From: Candidatus Kuenenbacteria bacterium
GTDB taxonomy: Bacteria > Patescibacteriota > Patescibacteriia > UBA11705 > JABHMO01
DNA: 57,310 nt
Assembly: GCA_013202715.1 (NCBI GenBank)
Contig: JABMRF010000046.1
Span: 1 to 57,310, forward strand
Direction: 5' to 3'
A model generated the notes under the pieces. That model made no database searches and was not told the DNA's origin. It saw nothing but the letters and a program-made list of their open reading frames with translations. Each line of letters begins with the position of its first letter. The first letter of the stretch is position 1. Position numbers and translations under genes: made by a program. Positions 27,744 to 54,063 of this stretch are shown here, in pieces.

Positions 27744-29132
27744 ATGACTAGCCCCAAAAAAATCTTCACCTGCACAAAATGCGACGCTCAGTTTCCAAAA
27801 TGGGCCGGTCGCTGTTTGGGTTGCGGAGCTTGGGGAACGGTAGAAGAGTCAAAAGTCAATAGTCAAAAGTCAAAAGTTGTGGAAAGCCAAACTTTTGATG
27901 AAAAAAAACTGGTGGACTTCAATCAGATATCTTCGGAGAATTTTCAAAGGACAAAATTAGGTTTAAATGAAATAGATCAAATTTTTGGTGGTGGAATTGT
28001 CCAGGGTAGTATCACTCTCATAGGTGGTGAGCCCGGGATCGGTAAGTCGACACTAGTACTACAAATACTAAAACAATTAGAGGGGGGAGAGACTCCCCCC
28101 GAACCACACCTCGATAAACTCGGTGGGTTCAGGGCAAGCCTTCTTTATATTTCTGGAGAAGAATCTGCACAGCAAATAAAACTTCGAATGGATCGACTAA
28201 AATACAAGGCAAATACTCTAAGATTCCTGGCAGAAACAAATGTCGAGCAAATCTGCGCCGCAATTCGGGAGTTGAAACCGAAAATCGCCATCATTGACTC
28301 TATTCAGACCATTTATTCGAGTGATGTTGAATCAGAAGCTGGAAATGTAGGCCAAATTCGTGCTTGTACTGTTAAATTGCTTGAAGTGGCTAAAACAACC
28401 AACACGCCAGTTATCATTACAGGACACGTAACTAAGGACGGCTCTGTGGCCGGCCCAAAGACACTTGAGCATCTTGTTGACGTTGTTATTTACCTCGAAG
28501 GAGATAAATTCCACGGCTACCGAATTTTACGAAGCTCAAAAAACAGATTCGGCTCAACAAATGAAATCGGTGTCTTGGAAATGACGGCCGAAGGGTTAAT
28601 TGAAGTAAAAGATCCGACCAAAGCTTTTCTTTCTAGCTCTAGCCAAGATATTCCCGGCTCAGTTATCAGTTGCTTCATGGAAGGAACCCGAGCGTTCCTA
28701 GTCGAAGTGCAAGCACTGGTCACACCAACGGTTTTTGGATTTCCGCAGAGAAAAACTTCTGGCTATGATTTGAATCGCCTGCAAATGATTGCGGCCGTTT
28801 TGTTCAAGCGTGCCGGATTAAATTTAGGAAATCAAGACATTCACCTCAATATTGTCGGCGGATTCAAAGTTACCGAGCCCGCAATTGATCTCGCTGTCGC
28901 CATGGCCATCATGTCTGCATTGAAAAATGTCGCTATCGCCAAAAACACAATTATAATTGGTGAGCTCGGACTTGGCGGTGAAGTAAGAGTGGTTTCCAAT
29001 ATTGAAAAAAGAATTATGGAAGCGGAAAAACTTGGTTTTGAAAAAGTTATCATTCCAGATGTTAAAATAAACAAAACCTTCAAGATTCAAATTCAAAAAG
29101 CGAAAAGTATAACAGAGTTAAAATTGAATTAA
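27744..29132 (+). CDS. radA: DNA repair protein RadA/Sms
   Basis: C4 zinc finger, GEPGIGKST, KNRFG motif, Lon-like C-terminal domain. Confidence 0.97.
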   Translation: MTSPKKIFTCTKCDAQFPKWAGRCLGCGAWGTVEESKVNSQKSKVVESQTFDEKKLVDFNQISSENFQRTKLGLNEIDQIFGGGIVQGSITLIGGEPGIGKSTLVLQILKQLEGGETPPEPHLDKLGGFRASLLYISGEESAQQIKLRMDRLKYKANTLRFLAETNVEQICAAIRELKPKIAIIDSIQTIYSSDVESEAGNVGQIRACTVKLLEVAKTTNTPVIITGHVTKDGSVAGPKTLEHLVDVVIYLEGDKFHGYRILRSSKNRFGSTNEIGVLEMTAEGLIEVKDPTKAFLSSSSQDIPGSVISCFMEGTRAFLVEVQALVTPTVFGFPQRKTSGYDLNRLQMIAAVLFKRAGLNLGNQDIHLNIVGGFKVTEPAIDLAVAMAIMSALKNVAIAKNTIIIGELGLGGEVRVVSNIEKRIMEAEKLGFEKVIIPDVKINKTFKIQIQKAKSITELKLN

Positions 29133-29147
29133 ATCAAATCAATATAT

Positions 29148-29186
29148 AAAAAAAGCTGGTCACACGTGGATGACCAGTTTTTGTTT
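29148..29186. terminator. Bidirectional intrinsic terminator
   Basis: A-run, CTGGTCA-loop-TGACCAG, T-run, between convergent genes. Confidence 0.75.
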
Positions 29187-29188
29187 GG

Positions 29189-51110: not shown

Positions 51111-51483
51111 GATTCTTTTTCTGTAATGTTTTAACACTAGCTCCAAGCAACCTTGATATTTCTATCACTTCGCATAAAAGAGCTTTTAATTTTTGTTGAT
51201 CCCCTTTATTCATATCACGAAGCAAAACTAGCCAAAATTGAGTTTCATTTGCAGATTTCAAGCAGTGCCTTAAATAATTCGCAAAATCCCTATCTGAACC
51301 GCCTGCAATTGCCTCAATATAATTTGCTCCAATACTTGTTCCACTTCTTATGAATTGTTTTTTGATAACCTGACAAACTACATCTTTCCAGTCATAATTT
51401 TCGCTAAATTTTAATAACTCTAAAATAAAATTGTATATTCTTTGCTTAAACTCTTTACTAAAATCCTTGTTACACTTTCTCAT
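51091..51483 (-). CDS. Four-helix-bundle protein (TIGR02436 / 23S rRNA-IVP-like), copy A
   Basis: QFIRSGTSIGANYIEA..G.S.RDF......LKSANET.FWL.LL motif. Confidence 0.9.
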   Translation of the reverse strand: MRKCNKDFSKEFKQRIYNFILELLKFSENYDWKDVVCQVIKKQFIRSGTSIGANYIEAIAGGSDRDFANYLRHCLKSANETQFWLVLLRDMNKGDQQKLKALLCEVIEISRLLGASVKTLQKKNQKKKGI

Positions 51484-51501
51484 ATTGTTATATCATTATT
51501 T

Positions 51502-51900
51502 CTATTCAATGAGTTTCAACTCTAGACTTTTGACTCTAGACTCTTGACTTAACCGTATATAACCATTGATAAACTTGTTAATCCTTTATGCTTTTGACAA
51601 TATTTCAAGCTGTCAATAATAATTTTAAAATATTTTGGTTTTGTAAAAATATCAATCCACTCGATGATTGTCAATGTTAAAAAGTGAGTTACATTTTCGT
51701 TTTCTTTATGGATTCTGAGTACTGGCATATAATCTTCCCGTTTTTAAGTATCCTCATTGTGGACTCCATAGCTATTCCCCGCCTTACGGACGATGAATAG
51801 ACTATGGAGCCCCCTTTAATTAAACTATTCAATGAGTTTCAACTCTAGACTTTTGACTCTTGACTTTTGACTTAACCGTGGATAGCCATTGATAAACTTG
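51502..51900. repeat. 76-bp direct repeat pair (51502-51577 and 51825-51900)
   Basis: Manual alignment gives 71/76 identity. It duplicates the 3' end of the lamin-tail gene. Confidence 0.9.
51761..51817. repeat. REP-like palindrome (copy C)
   Basis: GGACTCCATAG-CTATTC...GAATAG-ACTATGGAGCCCCCTTT. Confidence 0.75.
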
Positions 51901-54063
51901 GCTTTTCTTCTGCCACAATAAGTACAGATTACACAGCATCAAAACCACGAATCCGCTAAGCAACAACCAAAGCGTGTTTTTCTTTTGTGAATTAGTACCA
52001 ACCTTACTATCACTGTTTTGAGCCGAGCCAACAACCGGTTTTGCTTGCAAGGTCAAGTTAACCATATCAGCCTCGCTTCTTGGCATAAGCCGATATTCAT
52101 CATCGTATTGACCAACGATCCCGGTGATTATGATTTGATTGCCAACATCAAAAAGCTTTGAACTGATCTTTGTGCCACGCTTTAAATAAACGACAAACTC
52201 ACCAAATTCATCCGCAAAAATTAGTCTACTTGAATCCTTTTCAACCAGTTCTCCTTGAACCTGAACAAAAACGCCTTCTTTTTCCTCATTAAGCCCAAGC
52301 GAATTAATTGTGGGCGGCGTTGCCACCTCTTGATTTTCCAGAATCGTTAAATCAGCTTTTTCTTTAATTAAGATTCTTTTTTCATTCCGACTTTCAGATA
52401 ATGTTCCATTAACCTCCACCAAGTCGCCAACTTTCAATTCAGGCCAGTCAGCTTTTGAAAAATAGATCTGGATTCCATTTAGATAAATAAGGCTCTTGCT
52501 AAATACTTCCGGTAAAACAACCACCTGCCCTTTAACTTTAACCTTTGACCTTAACGGTAAACTTCGAACTTCTGCTAAGCTATCCACCTCCATTGTGTCA
52601 CCCTGAGAGAGGAGGGACGACGAACCGAAGGGTGTTGTTTTTTTACTGCTCACTACCAAACCCGCCGTCTGCATAGCCGGCTTTTTATTTTCCGCACCAG
52701 GTGTTGACTCCAATGTTTCCAGCCAACCGCCCTCAAACCAGGAATTGGAATAATCTTCTTTTGGGTTTTGATAATCAACTGAACTTATAATCTGACCATT
52801 TGGATCAAGAAGATTGATCTGGTCCGATGAATTGTTTAGGACCAATCCAGTTTCTTCTTTATTAAAAACCAAATAATCATTTACTTTAATTACAATCTGA
52901 TCTTCCAACTTGAACGGTTTACTTCCGCCTTCTGCGTCATCCAGGCTCCAGCCCAACAAGTTAACGTCAGTTTCTCCGGAATTATACAACTCAATCCATT
53001 CAGCATTATCACTTCCCAGCGGATCAGCCAAAAATTCATTGATAATAATTTTATCTGAAAATTGATATACTGGTTGGACTTCTTCCACTTCTTCCACTTG
53101 CTTGTCCTCGGTAGTTTCAACGAAGGAGGATTCAACCTCTTCCACTTTTTCAACCTGCGTGTCCTCCGCAGTTTCAACGAAGGAGGGTTCAACTTCCTCA
53201 ACCTGCTTTGCCTTGAGCTTGCCTCTCGGCCATGAGCTCGAGGCCGAATGGTCGAAAGGCTCCTCGGTTAATTGAAAAAAATTAATCTGACTTGGGGTTG
53301 CAACTTCTGTTTCTTTGTATTCATCGTCAAATAAACCAATTGAATTGCCTGATTCACCGGCCGGAACATTTGAGTCTTCCCATTCGCCGTAACTAACTTT
53401 ATCAATTTGGCTTCCATAAGAATCCTGCAAAATTACACAATCGCCACCATTATTCAAACTACTTTTGTCAAAAACAAGATAACCAAGAGGTCCGATGGAA
53501 CCGGTTAATTGTGTTTTTTTGCCGGCGCCTTCGATCAAATTCCAGCCGGACAAATCAATCGCCTCTGCAGTCGTATTATACAGTTCCACCCATTCCGGAT
53601 CGCCAGAAATCGGAGCGGCCATTATTTCATTAATTCGAATTTGCTTTGGGCCAATGATCGGTTGAAAAGTATCCAACTGATCTTCAACTACATTCGCTTG
53701 CTCAGTTGAACTGTTTTCTTCAATTAAATTATCTTCTTCAAGTGGTTCACTTTCCTCAGTTGAATTATTTTCTTCAACCACCTCCGTTTCCTCAGCTAGA
53801 TTATTTTCTTCTATGGAATCATCTTCACTCGCTTCCGGATCCTCAATCAACTCCGGAGTTTCAACTGGCTGTTCATCAACATTTTCCAATAAATTTTTTA
53901 ACCACGATTGACATGAATCATCTGCGCAGCCAATAACAATGTACTGGTAAACCTGACTGTCAGAAATTGTATTGTAAACCATCGCCGCCTTTGCCTGGCG
54001 AAAAACCACATCAAAAGGAATGGTCAACAGACTGATCAATAATATTCCAAGTAAATATTTCAT
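51829..54063 (-). CDS. Surface protein with two lamin-tail domains, OB folds and C-terminal TM
   Basis: Signal peptide; INEIM..P....EWVELYN and INEFL.DP...EWIELYN; OB-like V.V.G.V...; TM helix near the C-terminus. Confidence 0.8.
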   Translation of the reverse strand: MKYLLGILLISLLTIPFDVVFRQAKAAMVYNTISDSQVYQYIVIGCADDSCQSWLKNLLENVDEQPVETPELIEDPEASEDDSIEENNLAEETEVVEENNSTEESEPLEEDNLIEENSSTEQANVVEDQLDTFQPIIGPKQIRINEIMAAPISGDPEWVELYNTTAEAIDLSGWNLIEGAGKKTQLTGSIGPLGYLVFDKSSLNNGGDCVILQDSYGSQIDKVSYGEWEDSNVPAGESGNSIGLFDDEYKETEVATPSQINFFQLTEEPFDHSASSSWPRGKLKAKQVEEVEPSFVETAEDTQVEKVEEVESSFVETTEDKQVEEVEEVQPVYQFSDKIIINEFLADPLGSDNAEWIELYNSGETDVNLLGWSLDDAEGGSKPFKLEDQIVIKVNDYLVFNKEETGLVLNNSSDQINLLDPNGQIISSVDYQNPKEDYSNSWFEGGWLETLESTPGAENKKPAMQTAGLVVSSKKTTPFGSSSLLSQGDTMEVDSLAEVRSLPLRSKVKVKGQVVVLPEVFSKSLIYLNGIQIYFSKADWPELKVGDLVEVNGTLSESRNEKRILIKEKADLTILENQEVATPPTINSLGLNEEKEGVFVQVQGELVEKDSSRLIFADEFGEFVVYLKRGTKISSKLFDVGNQIIITGIVGQYDDEYRLMPRSEADMVNLTLQAKPVVGSAQNSDSKVGTNSQKKNTLWLLLSGFVVLMLCNLYLLWQKKSQVYQWLSTVKSKVKSQKSRVETH

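What the first reader, a model, noticed from the sequence alone, without database searches (positions are those of the whole stretch)
28095..53260. A dispersed palindrome family (CCT(T)GAGC...TCGAAAGG) that looks like a tRNA-Ser D-arm, with an intermediate captured in this window
Several elements share one frame with variable inserted hairpins. tRNA-Ser(GCT): TGCCTGAGTGGTTGAAAGG. Pseudo-half at 33877-33937: TGCCTGAGCTTG[ins]TTGAAAGG. 33456-33491: TGCCTTGAGC[ins]GTCGAAAGG. 53208-53260: TGCCTTGAGCTTG[ins]GTCGAAAGG. 52597-52632: CCCTGAG[ins]ACCGAAGGG. A modified copy lies in radA at 28095-28140. The series grades from real tRNA to free repeat. Inference: this repeat family derives from or mimics tRNA D-arms, and may be the non-autonomous substrate of the small GIY-YIG nucleases.
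Basis: partly seen in the sequence, partly recalled or inferred. Interest (0 to 1): 0.75.

Follow-up and report, generated by a model that had tools for sequence, protein, structure and literature searches.

The report
Hairpin repeats of small GIY-YIG cassettes
The "tRNA-like palindromes" are copies of a conserved oriented hairpin motif that brackets tiny GIY-YIG nuclease genes parked next to tRNA genes in ultra-small (CPR) bacteria and that has also landed in frame inside housekeeping genes; the link to the nuclease is strong, the descent from a tRNA D-arm is only weakly supported.

Summary
All listed elements exist and fit one oriented frame: [4-6 bp covarying stem]-GAG(C/T)-[0-50 nt insert]-(G/A)(T/C)CGA-[stem']. 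The window has 7 strict matches against 1.1 expected.

The frame is not a free palindrome family. In 51 of 68 non-redundant metagenomic loci it lies within about 120 nt upstream of relatives of the window's second GIY-YIG gene, a 52-fold local enrichment. It often has an inverted copy after the stop codon. In tRNA-linked loci an inverted copy uses the tRNA's own CCA end as its stem.

The radA copy is a precise 42-nt in-frame insertion that is absent from orthologues 85-89% identical.

The "intermediate" is a genuine copy of the tRNA-Ser 5' part. It carries a conserved CCCGCC hairpin and belongs to the design of the first GIY-YIG family.

Similarity of the family consensus to tRNA D-arms is marginal (p about 0.01 for Ser alone, about 0.06 after correction).

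The closest known system is Ssn nucleases with SRM hairpin repeats. The motif differs (0 SRM matches), and the tRNA linkage and in-gene copies are not described there.

Verdict: a new variant of a known kind, interest 0.6.

The parts
33877..33937 (-). Degenerate copy of nt 1-40 of tRNA-Ser(GCT) (the 'pseudo-half'). A 24-nt insert, TTG-CCCCGCC-GAT-GGCGGGG-TGAA (33898-33921), sits in the D-loop. The pseudo-half ends 2 nt before the ATG of GIY-YIG#1.
   Evidence: Sequence read. The same layout, tracking each genome's own tRNA, occurs in L201, L202-207, L208 (3 tandem copies), L209 and L216. The hairpin folds at z -2.6.
33596..33874 (-). GIY-YIG#1, 92 aa, single domain. Its last 13 codons (GEVPEWLKGAPC-stop) are nt 1-39 of tRNA-Ser(GCT).
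   Evidence: Pfam PF01541, E 1.9e-13. The C-terminal tRNA-encoded tail is conserved in homologues from several CPR lineages and Omnitrophica.
33545..33634 (-). Intact tRNA-Ser(GCT).
   Evidence: ARAGORN; Rfam tRNA 58.3 bits.
33489..33548 (-). This stretch starts at the CCA of the tRNA and holds two features. The first is an inverted (R) copy of the motif, CCAC-TCGAC-...-GCTC-GTGG (33520-33547), whose 5' stem strand is the tRNA's CCA. The second is a 16-bp perfect hairpin, CACTCGACTCGCTTCG/CGAAGCGAGTCGAGTG, enclosing GGTCTTCGACC.
   Evidence: I17; z -6.3. The same arrangement occurs in 25-31 of 34 tRNA/tmRNA-linked loci, with stem covariation.
33456..33491 (-). Forward (F) copy of the motif, GTGCCTT-GAGC-GAACGAAGAGA-GTCGA-AAGGCAGGG. 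It ends 14 nt before the ATG of GIY-YIG#2.
   Evidence: The equivalent element is present upstream of 51 of 68 relatives.
33148..33441 (-). GIY-YIG#2, 97 aa, UPF0213/Slx1-like, single domain. Its stop codon lies inside tRNA-Ser(TGA) (33071-33161).
   Evidence: Nearest solved structures are 1zg2 and 1ywl. HMM scan of the window.
53209..53260 (+). Solo F copy with the same 10+10 nt frame as 33456-33491. It is translated in frame on the minus strand (EPFDHSASSSWPRGKLKA) in an inter-domain linker of the lamin-tail-domain protein (51829-54063).
53219..53250 (+). Nested 29-32 nt mini-palindrome, TTGCCTCTCGGCCATGAGCTCGAGGCCGAATG, filling the loop of the F copy. It is a separate high-copy repeat in the source community.
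   Evidence: Word depth is 234-848 against 4-18 in the flanks. Many contigs carry it with different flanks, and contigs break at it. It is single in the window.
52597..52633 (+). Diverged solo F copy, CACCCT-GAGA-GAGGAGGGACGACGAA-CCGA-AGGGTG. It is translated in frame (TPFGSSSLLSQGD) in the same gene.
28097..28138 (-). 42-nt in-frame insertion in radA, between Walker A and the LYISGEES strand. Its core on the minus strand is CACC-GAGT-TT-ATCGA-GGTG. It is absent from close orthologues and shows no target duplication (boundary ambiguous by 2 nt).
   Evidence: 15-aa insert relative to S. pneumoniae RadA 5lkm. Absent in orthologues 89, 85 and 79% identical. DNA empty site GCTCC|CCTTC in L219 and L220. 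Folds at z -3.2.

Best explanation
The CCT(T)GAGC...TCGAAAGG elements are copies of one oriented DNA motif: a 4-6 bp stem that covaries, an invariant core GAG(C/T) ... (G/A)(T/C)CGA, and a loop that accepts inserts of 0-50 nt. This motif is the end-repeat and recognition module of small single-domain GIY-YIG nuclease cassettes (UPF0213/Slx1-like, GIY-YIG#2 family).

Shown:
- The motif lies just upstream of the nuclease gene in most relatives.
- An inverted copy follows the stop codon in the subfamily that is not tRNA-linked.
- In the tRNA-linked subfamily, an inverted copy starts exactly at the 3' end of a co-oriented tRNA or tmRNA and uses its last bases (CCA+N) as one stem strand.
- Solo copies occur elsewhere. 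They include precise in-frame insertions in radA and in a lamin-tail-domain protein gene.

Inferred, by analogy with the experimentally characterised Ssn nucleases and their SRM hairpins:
- The nuclease binds the motif when the DNA is single-stranded and nicks beside it.
- Break repair or strand-specific copying then spreads or maintains the motif and keeps the cassette at tRNA genes.

The tRNA-Ser 'pseudo-half' is a related but distinct product. Cassettes of the GIY-YIG#1 family sit fused to the 5' end of a tRNA. They are preceded by a duplicated piece of that same tRNA, which carries the family's own CCCGCC hairpin in a loop. Its D-loop also reads GAGC-TTG like the motif core, so it is a chimera of a tRNA and a cassette repeat. 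It is not proof that the family descends from a D-arm.
For: Within the window:
- Strict scan gives 7 hits against 1.1 expected.
- Identical 10+10 nt frames occur at the GIY-adjacent copy and the LTD-gene copy, and nowhere else.

Across 68 non-redundant loci from a metagenome scan with the GIY-YIG#2 alignment:
- 47 (strict) to 51 (relaxed) have the motif within 120-170 nt upstream of the gene.
- Density is 4.5 per kb there against 0.087 per kb elsewhere.
- Stem pairs are 96-100% Watson-Crick at positions 1-3 and 88% at position 4, with 2-4 Watson-Crick pair types (plus rare G-T or C-A) at each of positions 1-4, and the core is invariant.
- Inverted copies lie directly after the stop codon, and their stems match the upstream copy of the same cassette.
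- Identical stems are 3 times commoner within a locus than between loci.

tRNA linkage:
- About 45 of 80 loci have a co-oriented tRNA or tmRNA 74-350 nt upstream.
- 31 of 34 non-redundant linked loci have TCGAC within 10 nt of the tRNA end.
- 25 of 34 have a full inverted copy using the tRNA end as its stem, with covariation CCAT/ATGG, CCAC/GTGG, CCCT/AGGG, CTTT/AAAG.

Mobility:
- A 42-nt radA insert is absent from orthologues 85-89% identical, with a clean empty site.
- Its core equals the GAGT-TT-ATCGA variant seen upstream of GIY-YIG genes.

Precedent: Ssn, a roughly 94-aa GIY-YIG flanked by hairpin repeats, cuts only ssDNA next to the hairpin (PMC11893778).

GIY-YIG#1 design is shown.
Against: - No biochemical data exist for these proteins.
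- Membership of the Ssn clade (cd10448) could not be tested, and the nearest solved relatives are UPF0213 proteins.
- The published SRM search motif matches none of the elements.
- The motif frames themselves are not high-copy in the source metagenomes at 85% identity or more. Only the nested 32-mer is. Active multiplication of the frame in this genome therefore rests on four to six copies.
- G-T against A-C mismatches in the stems (6 against 3) give no strand signal, so an RNA role is not excluded.
- About a quarter of relatives lack a detectable motif upstream.
Confidence: 0.65

Rival explanations
1. One reading: the family descends from, or is selected to mimic, the D-arm of class II tRNAs (Ser). 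The nuclease originally recognised the D-arm hairpin of tRNA-Ser genes in single-stranded DNA, and the free repeats are detached D-arms.
For: - tRNA-Ser is the best-matching tRNA type for the minimal consensus CCCTGAGCTTGTCGAAGGG (mean score 15.5 against 9.5-14 for the others). Only 4-5 of 400 shuffles reach the Ser score.
- Pseudo-halves upstream of GIY-YIG#1 genes have D-loops reading GAGC-TTG or GAGT-TTA. These match the two core variants of the free motif, whereas the working tRNAs read GAGT-GG.
- F copies with CCCCGC hairpin inserts (L190, L199, L137, L187, L122) have the same layout as the pseudo-half D-arm.
- Both nuclease families live at tRNA genes.
Against: - After allowing for the best of all tRNA types, 24-28 of 400 shuffles do as well. 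The best single alignment score (18) is reached by 258-266 of 400 shuffles and also by the reverse complement.
- There is no G18-G19 and no further tRNA part. Rfam's tRNA model reports only the three true tRNAs at E up to 1.
- The TG prefix is explained by pairing with CCA and is absent in the non-tRNA-linked subfamily.
- In GIY-YIG#1 cassettes the same CCCGCC hairpin also sits in anticodon-arm and T-arm-proximal positions of pseudo-tRNA-Ala and pseudo-tRNA-Gly pieces, so the D-arm is not special.
Confidence: 0.25
2. The elements next to the nuclease genes act at the RNA level. They would be a structured leader in the tRNA-GIY-YIG co-transcript that directs processing (release of the mRNA from the tRNA precursor) or controls translation. 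On this reading the in-gene copies are unrelated by function.
For: - The cassettes are co-oriented with, and 74-350 nt downstream of, tRNA or tmRNA genes, and often lie upstream of another tRNA.
- The first stem includes the tRNA's CCA, and the last hairpin ends 10-40 nt before the start codon.
- The stems covary.
- A possible tandem sheared G-A motif adjoins the stem (read from the sequence).
Against: - Solo copies occur inside coding regions and as arrays away from any GIY-YIG gene.
- An inverted copy follows the stop codon in the non-tRNA subfamily, which makes a DNA-level inverted-repeat design.
- There is no excess of G-U over A-C (6 against 3).
- There is no Rfam family.
- The characterised relatives (Ssn) do not bind RNA.
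- No RNA runs are available.
Confidence: 0.1
3. The repeats are REP-like elements mobilised by a Y1 (RAYT/IS200-type) transposase, for example the RAYT-like ORF at 54206-54919 beside the LTD gene. On this reading the GIY-YIG association is secondary.
For:
- REP/BIME families also show within-genome homogeneity and clustered inverted copies.
Against: - The ORF has no Pfam hit at E up to 0.01 and was described as lacking the catalytic residues.
- It is flanked by a different palindrome (54167-54198).
- In 68 independent loci the motif tracks the GIY-YIG gene, not a Y1 gene.
Confidence: 0.04

Closest known systems
Ssn site-specific ssDNA nucleases with NTS/SRM hairpin repeats (Chenal et al., Nat Commun 2025, PMC11893778)
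   Same: - A single-domain GIY-YIG protein of about 90-100 aa.
- The gene is flanked on one or both sides by oriented hairpin repeats of 20-50 nt. 71% of published Ssn homologues have one or more repeats nearby, against 69-75% here.
- Further copies are dispersed in the genome.
- The stem covaries next to a conserved asymmetric flank that gives the repeat its orientation.
   Different: - The motif differs. The published degenerate SRM pattern has 0 matches in the window and none on the elements.
- The nearest solved relatives of GIY-YIG#2 are UPF0213 proteins, and membership of cd10448 is untested.
- The cassettes are tied to the 3' or 5' ends of tRNA and tmRNA genes, and one copy uses the CCA end. 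The paper does not mention tRNA.
- Copies occur in frame inside genes, whereas the paper reports that only 2% of NTS are inside genes in N. meningitidis 8013.
- The hosts are CPR/Patescibacteria.
Phage T4 SegB and other free-standing GIY-YIG homing endonucleases (PMC2330249)
   Same: A GIY-YIG gene lodged between tRNA genes. The selfish-cassette logic applies, with cleavage near the insertion site expected.
   Different: - Seg proteins carry a separate DNA-binding domain and cut duplex DNA.
- They have no flanking hairpin repeats, no duplicated tRNA pieces and no dispersed solo repeats.
REP/BIME elements with RAYT (Y1) transposases, and IS200/IS605 subterminal hairpins
   Same: Short hairpin repeats flank the gene of the enzyme thought to act on them as single-stranded DNA. 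There are clusters of alternating orientation (L176, L177, L180, L186) and genome-specific variants.
   Different: The enzyme class differs (GIY-YIG, not HUH/Y1). There is no GTAG/CGTC tag. Copies occur inside coding regions.
Rickettsia palindromic elements (RPE)
   Same: Palindromic inserts are tolerated in frame inside housekeeping genes, including a loop close to a catalytic motif (RadA).
   Different: RPEs are 100-150 bp, against 19-52 bp here. Sequence relatedness was not tested. From my own knowledge, RPEs have no established enzyme partner, although the Ssn paper lists Rickettsia among SRM-rich genomes.

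Membership tests
Ssn nuclease / SRM repeat system | Small single-domain GIY-YIG protein (about 94 aa) without a DNA-binding domain | tested here: met
   GIY-YIG#2 is 97 aa and GIY-YIG#1 is 92 aa (79 aa before the tRNA-encoded tail). Only PF01541, with the overlapping T5orf172, matches.
Ssn nuclease / SRM repeat system | [quoted passage not shown] | not testable with these tools
   No CDD library or SsnA sequence was on hand, and no supplement is held. NCBIfam gives no family for GIY-YIG#2. 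The nearest solved structures are UPF0213 proteins 1zg2 and 1ywl.
Ssn nuclease / SRM repeat system | Gene flanked by oriented hairpin repeats, with further copies elsewhere | tested here: met
   47-51 of 68 loci have the motif upstream. Inverted copies follow the stop codon in many loci of the non-tRNA-linked subfamily. Enrichment is 52-fold.
Ssn nuclease / SRM repeat system | Repeats match the published degenerate SRM pattern HGTCWY..YYVSBRH..WNVSBRG..RNCYNB | tested here: not met
   0 hits in the window and 0 on the F copies and pseudo-half hairpins. The NTS control matches.
Ssn nuclease / SRM repeat system | Cleaves single-stranded DNA only, next to its hairpin, on one strand | not testable with these tools
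   This needs purified protein and oligonucleotides.
tRNA-derived element / tRNA D-arm mimic | Sequence similarity to a tRNA D-arm beyond chance | tested here: inconclusive
   Ser is the best type. 4-5 of 400 shuffles reach the Ser mean, 24-28 of 400 reach the best-type mean, and the best single hit is not significant.
tRNA-derived element / tRNA D-arm mimic | Conserved tRNA identity features (G18-G19, further arms) or recognition by a tRNA model | tested here: not met
   The free copies have CTTG or inserts where GG would be. Rfam at E up to 1 reports only the three true tRNAs between 27000 and 55000. ARAGORN finds 3 tRNAs.
tRNA-derived element / tRNA D-arm mimic | Existence of true tRNA-derived copies that carry the repeat | tested here: met
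   The pseudo-half 33877-33937 matches 35 of 40 tRNA positions. Equivalent pseudo-halves in L201-L209 and L216 track each genome's own tRNA. They belong to the GIY-YIG#1 family, not to the family flanked by the free motif.
REP/RAYT system | Associated Y1 (HUH) transposase gene flanked by the repeats | tested here: not met
   The RAYT-like ORF 54206-54919 has no Pfam hit and is flanked by another palindrome. Across the loci, the motif tracks GIY-YIG genes.
MITE (miniature inverted-repeat transposable element) | Terminal inverted repeats plus target-site duplication | tested here: not met
   The radA filled and empty sites show a 42-nt palindromic insert with no duplication (only a 2-nt CC ambiguity).
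Free-standing GIY-YIG homing endonuclease (Seg type) | GIY-YIG domain joined to a DNA-binding domain, cutting duplex DNA at a cassette-free allele | tested here: not met
   There is no second domain. The location among tRNA genes is shared. Cleavage is not testable here.

The most novel reading that the evidence does not exclude
Small GIY-YIG nucleases of CPR bacteria recognise a hairpin shape that tRNA-Ser genes adopt as single-stranded DNA (the D-arm). The dispersed GAGC...TCGA hairpins would then be detached, amplified D-arms. That would make them a prokaryotic, DNA-level counterpart of tRNA-derived SINEs, able to settle in frame in essential genes. The cassettes would park at tRNA genes because those genes are the ancestral target.
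Probability: 0.2. Interest if true: 0.85.

Novelty: new variant of a known kind. Interest (0 to 1): 0.6.

Why it matters
Ssn nucleases were described only in 2025. They were described from Proteobacteria, and their biological role outside Neisseria is open.

This locus and its 68 relatives show three things:
- A second, sequence-distinct hairpin motif is paired with a UPF0213/Slx1-like GIY-YIG clade in candidate-phyla bacteria.
- These cassettes are anchored precisely to tRNA and tmRNA ends.
- Their hairpins can insert cleanly into essential genes such as radA.

Together these give a defined enzyme-motif pair to test for ssDNA-specific cleavage, with possible use as a new specificity for ssDNA tools. 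They explain a widespread source of odd peptides (PFDKLR-, PELVEG- and LSLSKG-like) in metagenomic protein predictions. They also bear on how very small genomes tolerate selfish DNA. If the D-arm link were real, it would in addition explain why such cassettes choose tRNA genes.

Tried and rejected
No genome-wide copy count or GIY-YIG correlation was therefore possible.

Most matches were chance hits in GC-rich genomes. Only L093, L010, L034 and L056 looked related, and they gave the first hint of tRNA linkage.

3. A first regex for GIY-YIG ORFs downstream of those hits found none because it was too strict.

4. A literature search for the peptides encoded by the motif (VRPELVEG, FDKLRMTG and others) found nothing relevant.

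5. Rfam has no family at any element.

6. An exact search for the nested 32-mer in viral contigs gave 0 hits.

7. No RNA-seq runs hold the locus.

8. No alternative allele lacking the LTD-gene copy was seen in four metagenome runs.

9. A covariance model was considered but not built. The variable loop (0-50 nt) makes a short model insensitive, and the pattern scan with shuffles plus the alignment permutation test answered the same questions.

10. I rejected the idea that the TG before the motif mimics U8-G9 of a tRNA. It pairs with the CA of the upstream CCA and covaries with the base after CCA.

11. I rejected the window hits 43711-43755 and 56287-56354 as probable chance matches. Their interiors are AT-rich, and 43711-43755 lies in ordinary coding sequence.

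Full report
**What is in the window.** On the minus strand between 34030 and 33070 the order is:
- a promoter-like site;
- a degenerate copy of nt 1-40 of tRNA-Ser(GCT) (33937-33877);
- a 92-aa GIY-YIG gene (GIY-YIG#1, 33874-33596) whose last 39 nt are the start of the tRNA;
- the intact tRNA-Ser(GCT) (33634-33545);
- a GC-rich stretch (33548-33456);
- a 97-aa GIY-YIG gene (GIY-YIG#2, 33441-33148) whose stop codon lies inside tRNA-Ser(TGA) (33161-33071).

These are the only two GIY-YIG genes in the window. Earlier notes of this scan place the genome in Candidatus Kuenenbacteria; I did not test that.

**The observation.** 33456-33491(-) and 53209-53260(+) share exact frames TGCCTTGAGC ... GTCGAAAGGC, and each 10-mer occurs nowhere else in the window. 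52597-52633(+) and the radA element fit the same frame once the stem is allowed to vary.

All copies fit one pattern: [stem]-GAG(C/T)-[insert]-(G/A)(T/C)CGA-[stem']. A strict scan gives 7 hits against 1.1 expected. A relaxed scan gives 9 against 1.8. Two of those hits look like chance.

The frame is not much of a palindrome. Only the short stem pairs, and its folding energy is no better than shuffles. What is conserved is an asymmetric core, and this gives the element an orientation. I call the two orientations F and R.

**What the frame is.** A metagenome scan with an alignment of GIY-YIG#2 relatives returned 80 loci, 68 of them non-redundant.

- In 47 (strict) to 51 (relaxed) of the 68, an F copy ends within about 120-170 nt of the nuclease gene's start.
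- The density of copies is 4.5 per kb in the 400 nt upstream, against 0.087 per kb elsewhere in the same loci.
- The stem is 96-100% Watson-Crick at positions 1-3 and 88% at position 4, yet uses 2-4 Watson-Crick pair types (plus rare G-T or C-A) at each of positions 1-4: TA/CG; CG/TA; CG/GC/TA; CG/AT/TA/GC.
- The core never changes. Its two variants, GAGC-TT-G and GAGT-TT-A, change together.
- The minimal form is CCCTGAGCTTGTCGAAGGG. Many copies carry 10-50 nt of extra hairpin between GAGC and GTCGA.

In the subfamily that is not next to a tRNA (L175-L200), many genes (about 13 of the 16 non-redundant loci) have an R copy within about 75 nt after the stop codon, most of them directly after it (for example taa|CCCTTCGACAAGCTCAGGGAATAA). 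Its stem matches the upstream F copy of the same cassette, for example CCCT in some loci and CTTC in others. Several loci also hold arrays of alternating solo copies. Identical stems are three times commoner within a locus than between loci.

**The tRNA connection of this family.** About 45 of the 80 loci have a tRNA or tmRNA on the same strand ending 74-350 nt upstream of the gene. The types include Pro, Ser, Asp, Val, Glu, Gln, Arg and Met. Several further loci have a tmRNA-like 3' end that ARAGORN missed.

- In 31 of 34 non-redundant linked loci, TCGAC begins within 10 nt of the tRNA's last base.
- In 25 of 34 there is a full R copy whose 5' stem strand is the tRNA's own end. The partner covaries: CCAT..ATGG, CCAC..GTGG, CCCT..AGGG, CTTT..AAAG.
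- A long hairpin then closes on GAGTCGA(A/G)TG, and the F copy follows.

The window has exactly this layout. It holds an R copy CCAC-TCGAC...GCTC-GTGG (33547-33520), a perfect 16-bp hairpin (z -6.3), and then the F copy.

The TG pairs with the CA of CCA. It is TT in the subfamily that is not linked to tRNAs.

**Mobility.**

*radA.*
- The window's RadA has 15 extra residues between Walker A and the LYISGEES strand, compared with the solved S. pneumoniae protein.
- The closest orthologues, at 89, 85 and 79% identity, lack these residues.
- DNA alignment with two of them gives an empty site GCTCC|CCTTC and a 42-nt insert, window 28097-28138. There is no target duplication, and the boundary is ambiguous by 2 nt.
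- The insert is a good hairpin (z -3.2).
- On the minus strand its centre is CACC-GAGT-TT-ATCGA-GGTG, the same core variant found upstream of several GIY-YIG genes.

*LTD-protein gene.* Its two copies are also translated in frame.
- All three in-gene copies have the R form on the coding strand in one register: P-F-D, P-F-G and H-L-D-K-L-G.
- With three cases this is only suggestive.

*Metagenome depth.* Reads from four freshwater metagenomes show that the F frames, the 52600 copy and the radA insert are single-copy at 85% identity or more. The 29-32 nt filling of the LTD copy (53219-53250) is different:
- It has 13-170 times the flanking depth.
- It occurs in many different contexts.
- It breaks contigs.

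It is therefore a separate mini-palindrome nested in the loop of the F copy. This fits the general picture that the loop is where extra hairpins accumulate.

**The 'intermediate'.** The pseudo-half matches 35 of 40 positions of tRNA-Ser(GCT) outside a 24-nt insert, TTG-CCCCGCC-GAT-GGCGGGG-TGAA.

Homologues of GIY-YIG#1 from several CPR lineages and Omnitrophica keep the tRNA-encoded C-terminus GEVPEWLKGAPC. Their loci show the same design:
- a copy of the 5' part of that genome's own tRNA-Ser, following its sequence differences;
- the same (T/C)CCCGCC-N3-GGCGGG(A/G) hairpin in the D-loop;
- then the gene;
- then the working tRNA.

One locus has three such units in tandem (L208). Another has two hairpins in the pseudo-half (L209, Ser-CGA). 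Members next to tRNA-Ala and tRNA-Gly have pseudo-tRNA pieces with the hairpin in other arms (L213, L214).

So in this family the tRNA piece is target-derived, and the hairpin is the family's signature. The D-loops of the pseudo-halves nevertheless read GAGC-TTG or GAGT-TTA, like the two core variants of the free motif. Some F copies carry CCCCGC hairpins in the same place. The two designs are therefore probably related.

**Is the family a D-arm derivative?** I aligned the minimal consensus to 89 distinct tRNAs from the session's loci.
- tRNA-Ser scores best as a type (mean 15.5).
- Only 4-5 of 400 shuffled consensus sequences, with or without the stem kept, reach that score for Ser.
- However, 24-28 of 400 reach it for some tRNA type.
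- The best single score is ordinary, and the reverse complement scores the same.
- The free copies lack G18-G19, and Rfam's tRNA model does not see them.

I therefore rate the descent or mimicry idea at about one in four.

**Comparison with what is known.** Ssn proteins are 94-aa single-domain GIY-YIG proteins whose genes are flanked by oriented hairpin repeats (NTS/SRM). They bind the hairpin and cut beside it only in single-stranded DNA, not in duplex DNA or RNA.

The architecture here is the same. The differences are:
- The published degenerate SRM pattern has no match in the window or on any element.
- GIY-YIG#2's nearest solved relatives are UPF0213 proteins. Membership of the Ssn clade could not be tested.
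- The paper does not mention tRNA.
- The paper reports that only 2% of its repeats lie inside genes in N. meningitidis 8013.

T4 SegB shares the tRNA-cluster location but not the protein architecture or the repeats. REP/RAYT shares the logic but not the enzyme.

**Mechanism.**

Shown:
- the association of the motif with the nuclease gene;
- the orientation of the motif;
- covariation of the stem;
- the junction with tRNA ends;
- a clean insertion in radA.

Inferred:
- The nuclease recognises the motif in single-stranded DNA.
- Nuclease-made nicks, through repair or copying, spread the motif and keep the cassettes at tRNA genes.
- tRNA pieces are duplicated as a by-product in the GIY-YIG#1 family.

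An RNA-level role of the leader is not excluded. G-T and A-C mismatches are 6 against 3, and no RNA data exist.

**Limits.**
- The genome-contig scan was largely wasted on chance matches.

**Verdict.**
- The thing is a new variant of the Ssn-type nuclease-plus-hairpin system.
- Interest 0.6.

Noticed in passing
window 27847-27884: A stretch of about 35 nt in radA built from AGTCAAA-type heptamers (gagtcaaaagtcaatagtcaaaagtcaaaag) has 4-11 times the flanking depth in four metagenome runs. It occurs in many other contigs, so it is another dispersed repeat translated inside radA.
   Followed up: partly
window 53219-53250: A 29-32 nt mini-palindrome (TTGCCTCTCGGCCATGAGCTCGAGGCCGAATG) is a high-copy repeat in the source community (word depth up to 848 against 17.5). 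It occurs in many different flanks and breaks assemblies at this point.
   Followed up: partly
RadA residues about 110-130 (window 28070-28140) and homologues P0085-P0169: The loop after the Walker A helix of RadA is an insertion hot spot across CPR bacteria. Many homologues carry unrelated inserts of 10-70 residues there, several with the look of translated GC-rich repeats.
   Followed up: partly
window 33596-33634: The stop codon of GIY-YIG#1 is the TAA formed by T36-A37-A38 of the tRNA-Ser(GCT) anticodon loop. RNase P cleavage at the tRNA 5' end would leave the mRNA without a stop codon, which could keep nuclease expression very low.
   Followed up: no
L202-L207 (downstream of tRNA-Ser(GCT)): The same GIY-YIG#1/tRNA-Ser unit is followed, in different samples, by different genes. 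These include serine recombinases in either orientation, so this tRNA-Ser is also an integration hot spot.
   Followed up: no
L208 2300-3450: Three tandem units of pseudo-half plus GIY-YIG#1 gene lie ahead of one intact tRNA-Ser(GCT); one of the three genes is shorter. A phage-type integrase lies downstream.
   Followed up: no
L121-L125, L133, L137, L146, L149, L155, L187: In one group of relatives the order tmRNA, hairpin leader, GIY-YIG#2-type gene, infC is conserved. The cassette can therefore be stably inherited at one site.
   Followed up: no
L165 about 820-1100 and L147/L148 about 3200-3320: The leader between the tRNA and the GIY-YIG gene can contain tandem arrays: about six copies of a unit of about 47 nt in L165, and four copies of a 28-nt unit (GGACAAGCTCAAAGTCTACGACTTTATT) in L147/L148.
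   Followed up: no
L034 483-600: In a MAG labelled Gammaproteobacteria (45% GC), an F copy ends exactly at the first bases of a tRNA-Leu(TAA). The motif is therefore also found abutting the 5' end of a tRNA outside CPR.
   Followed up: no
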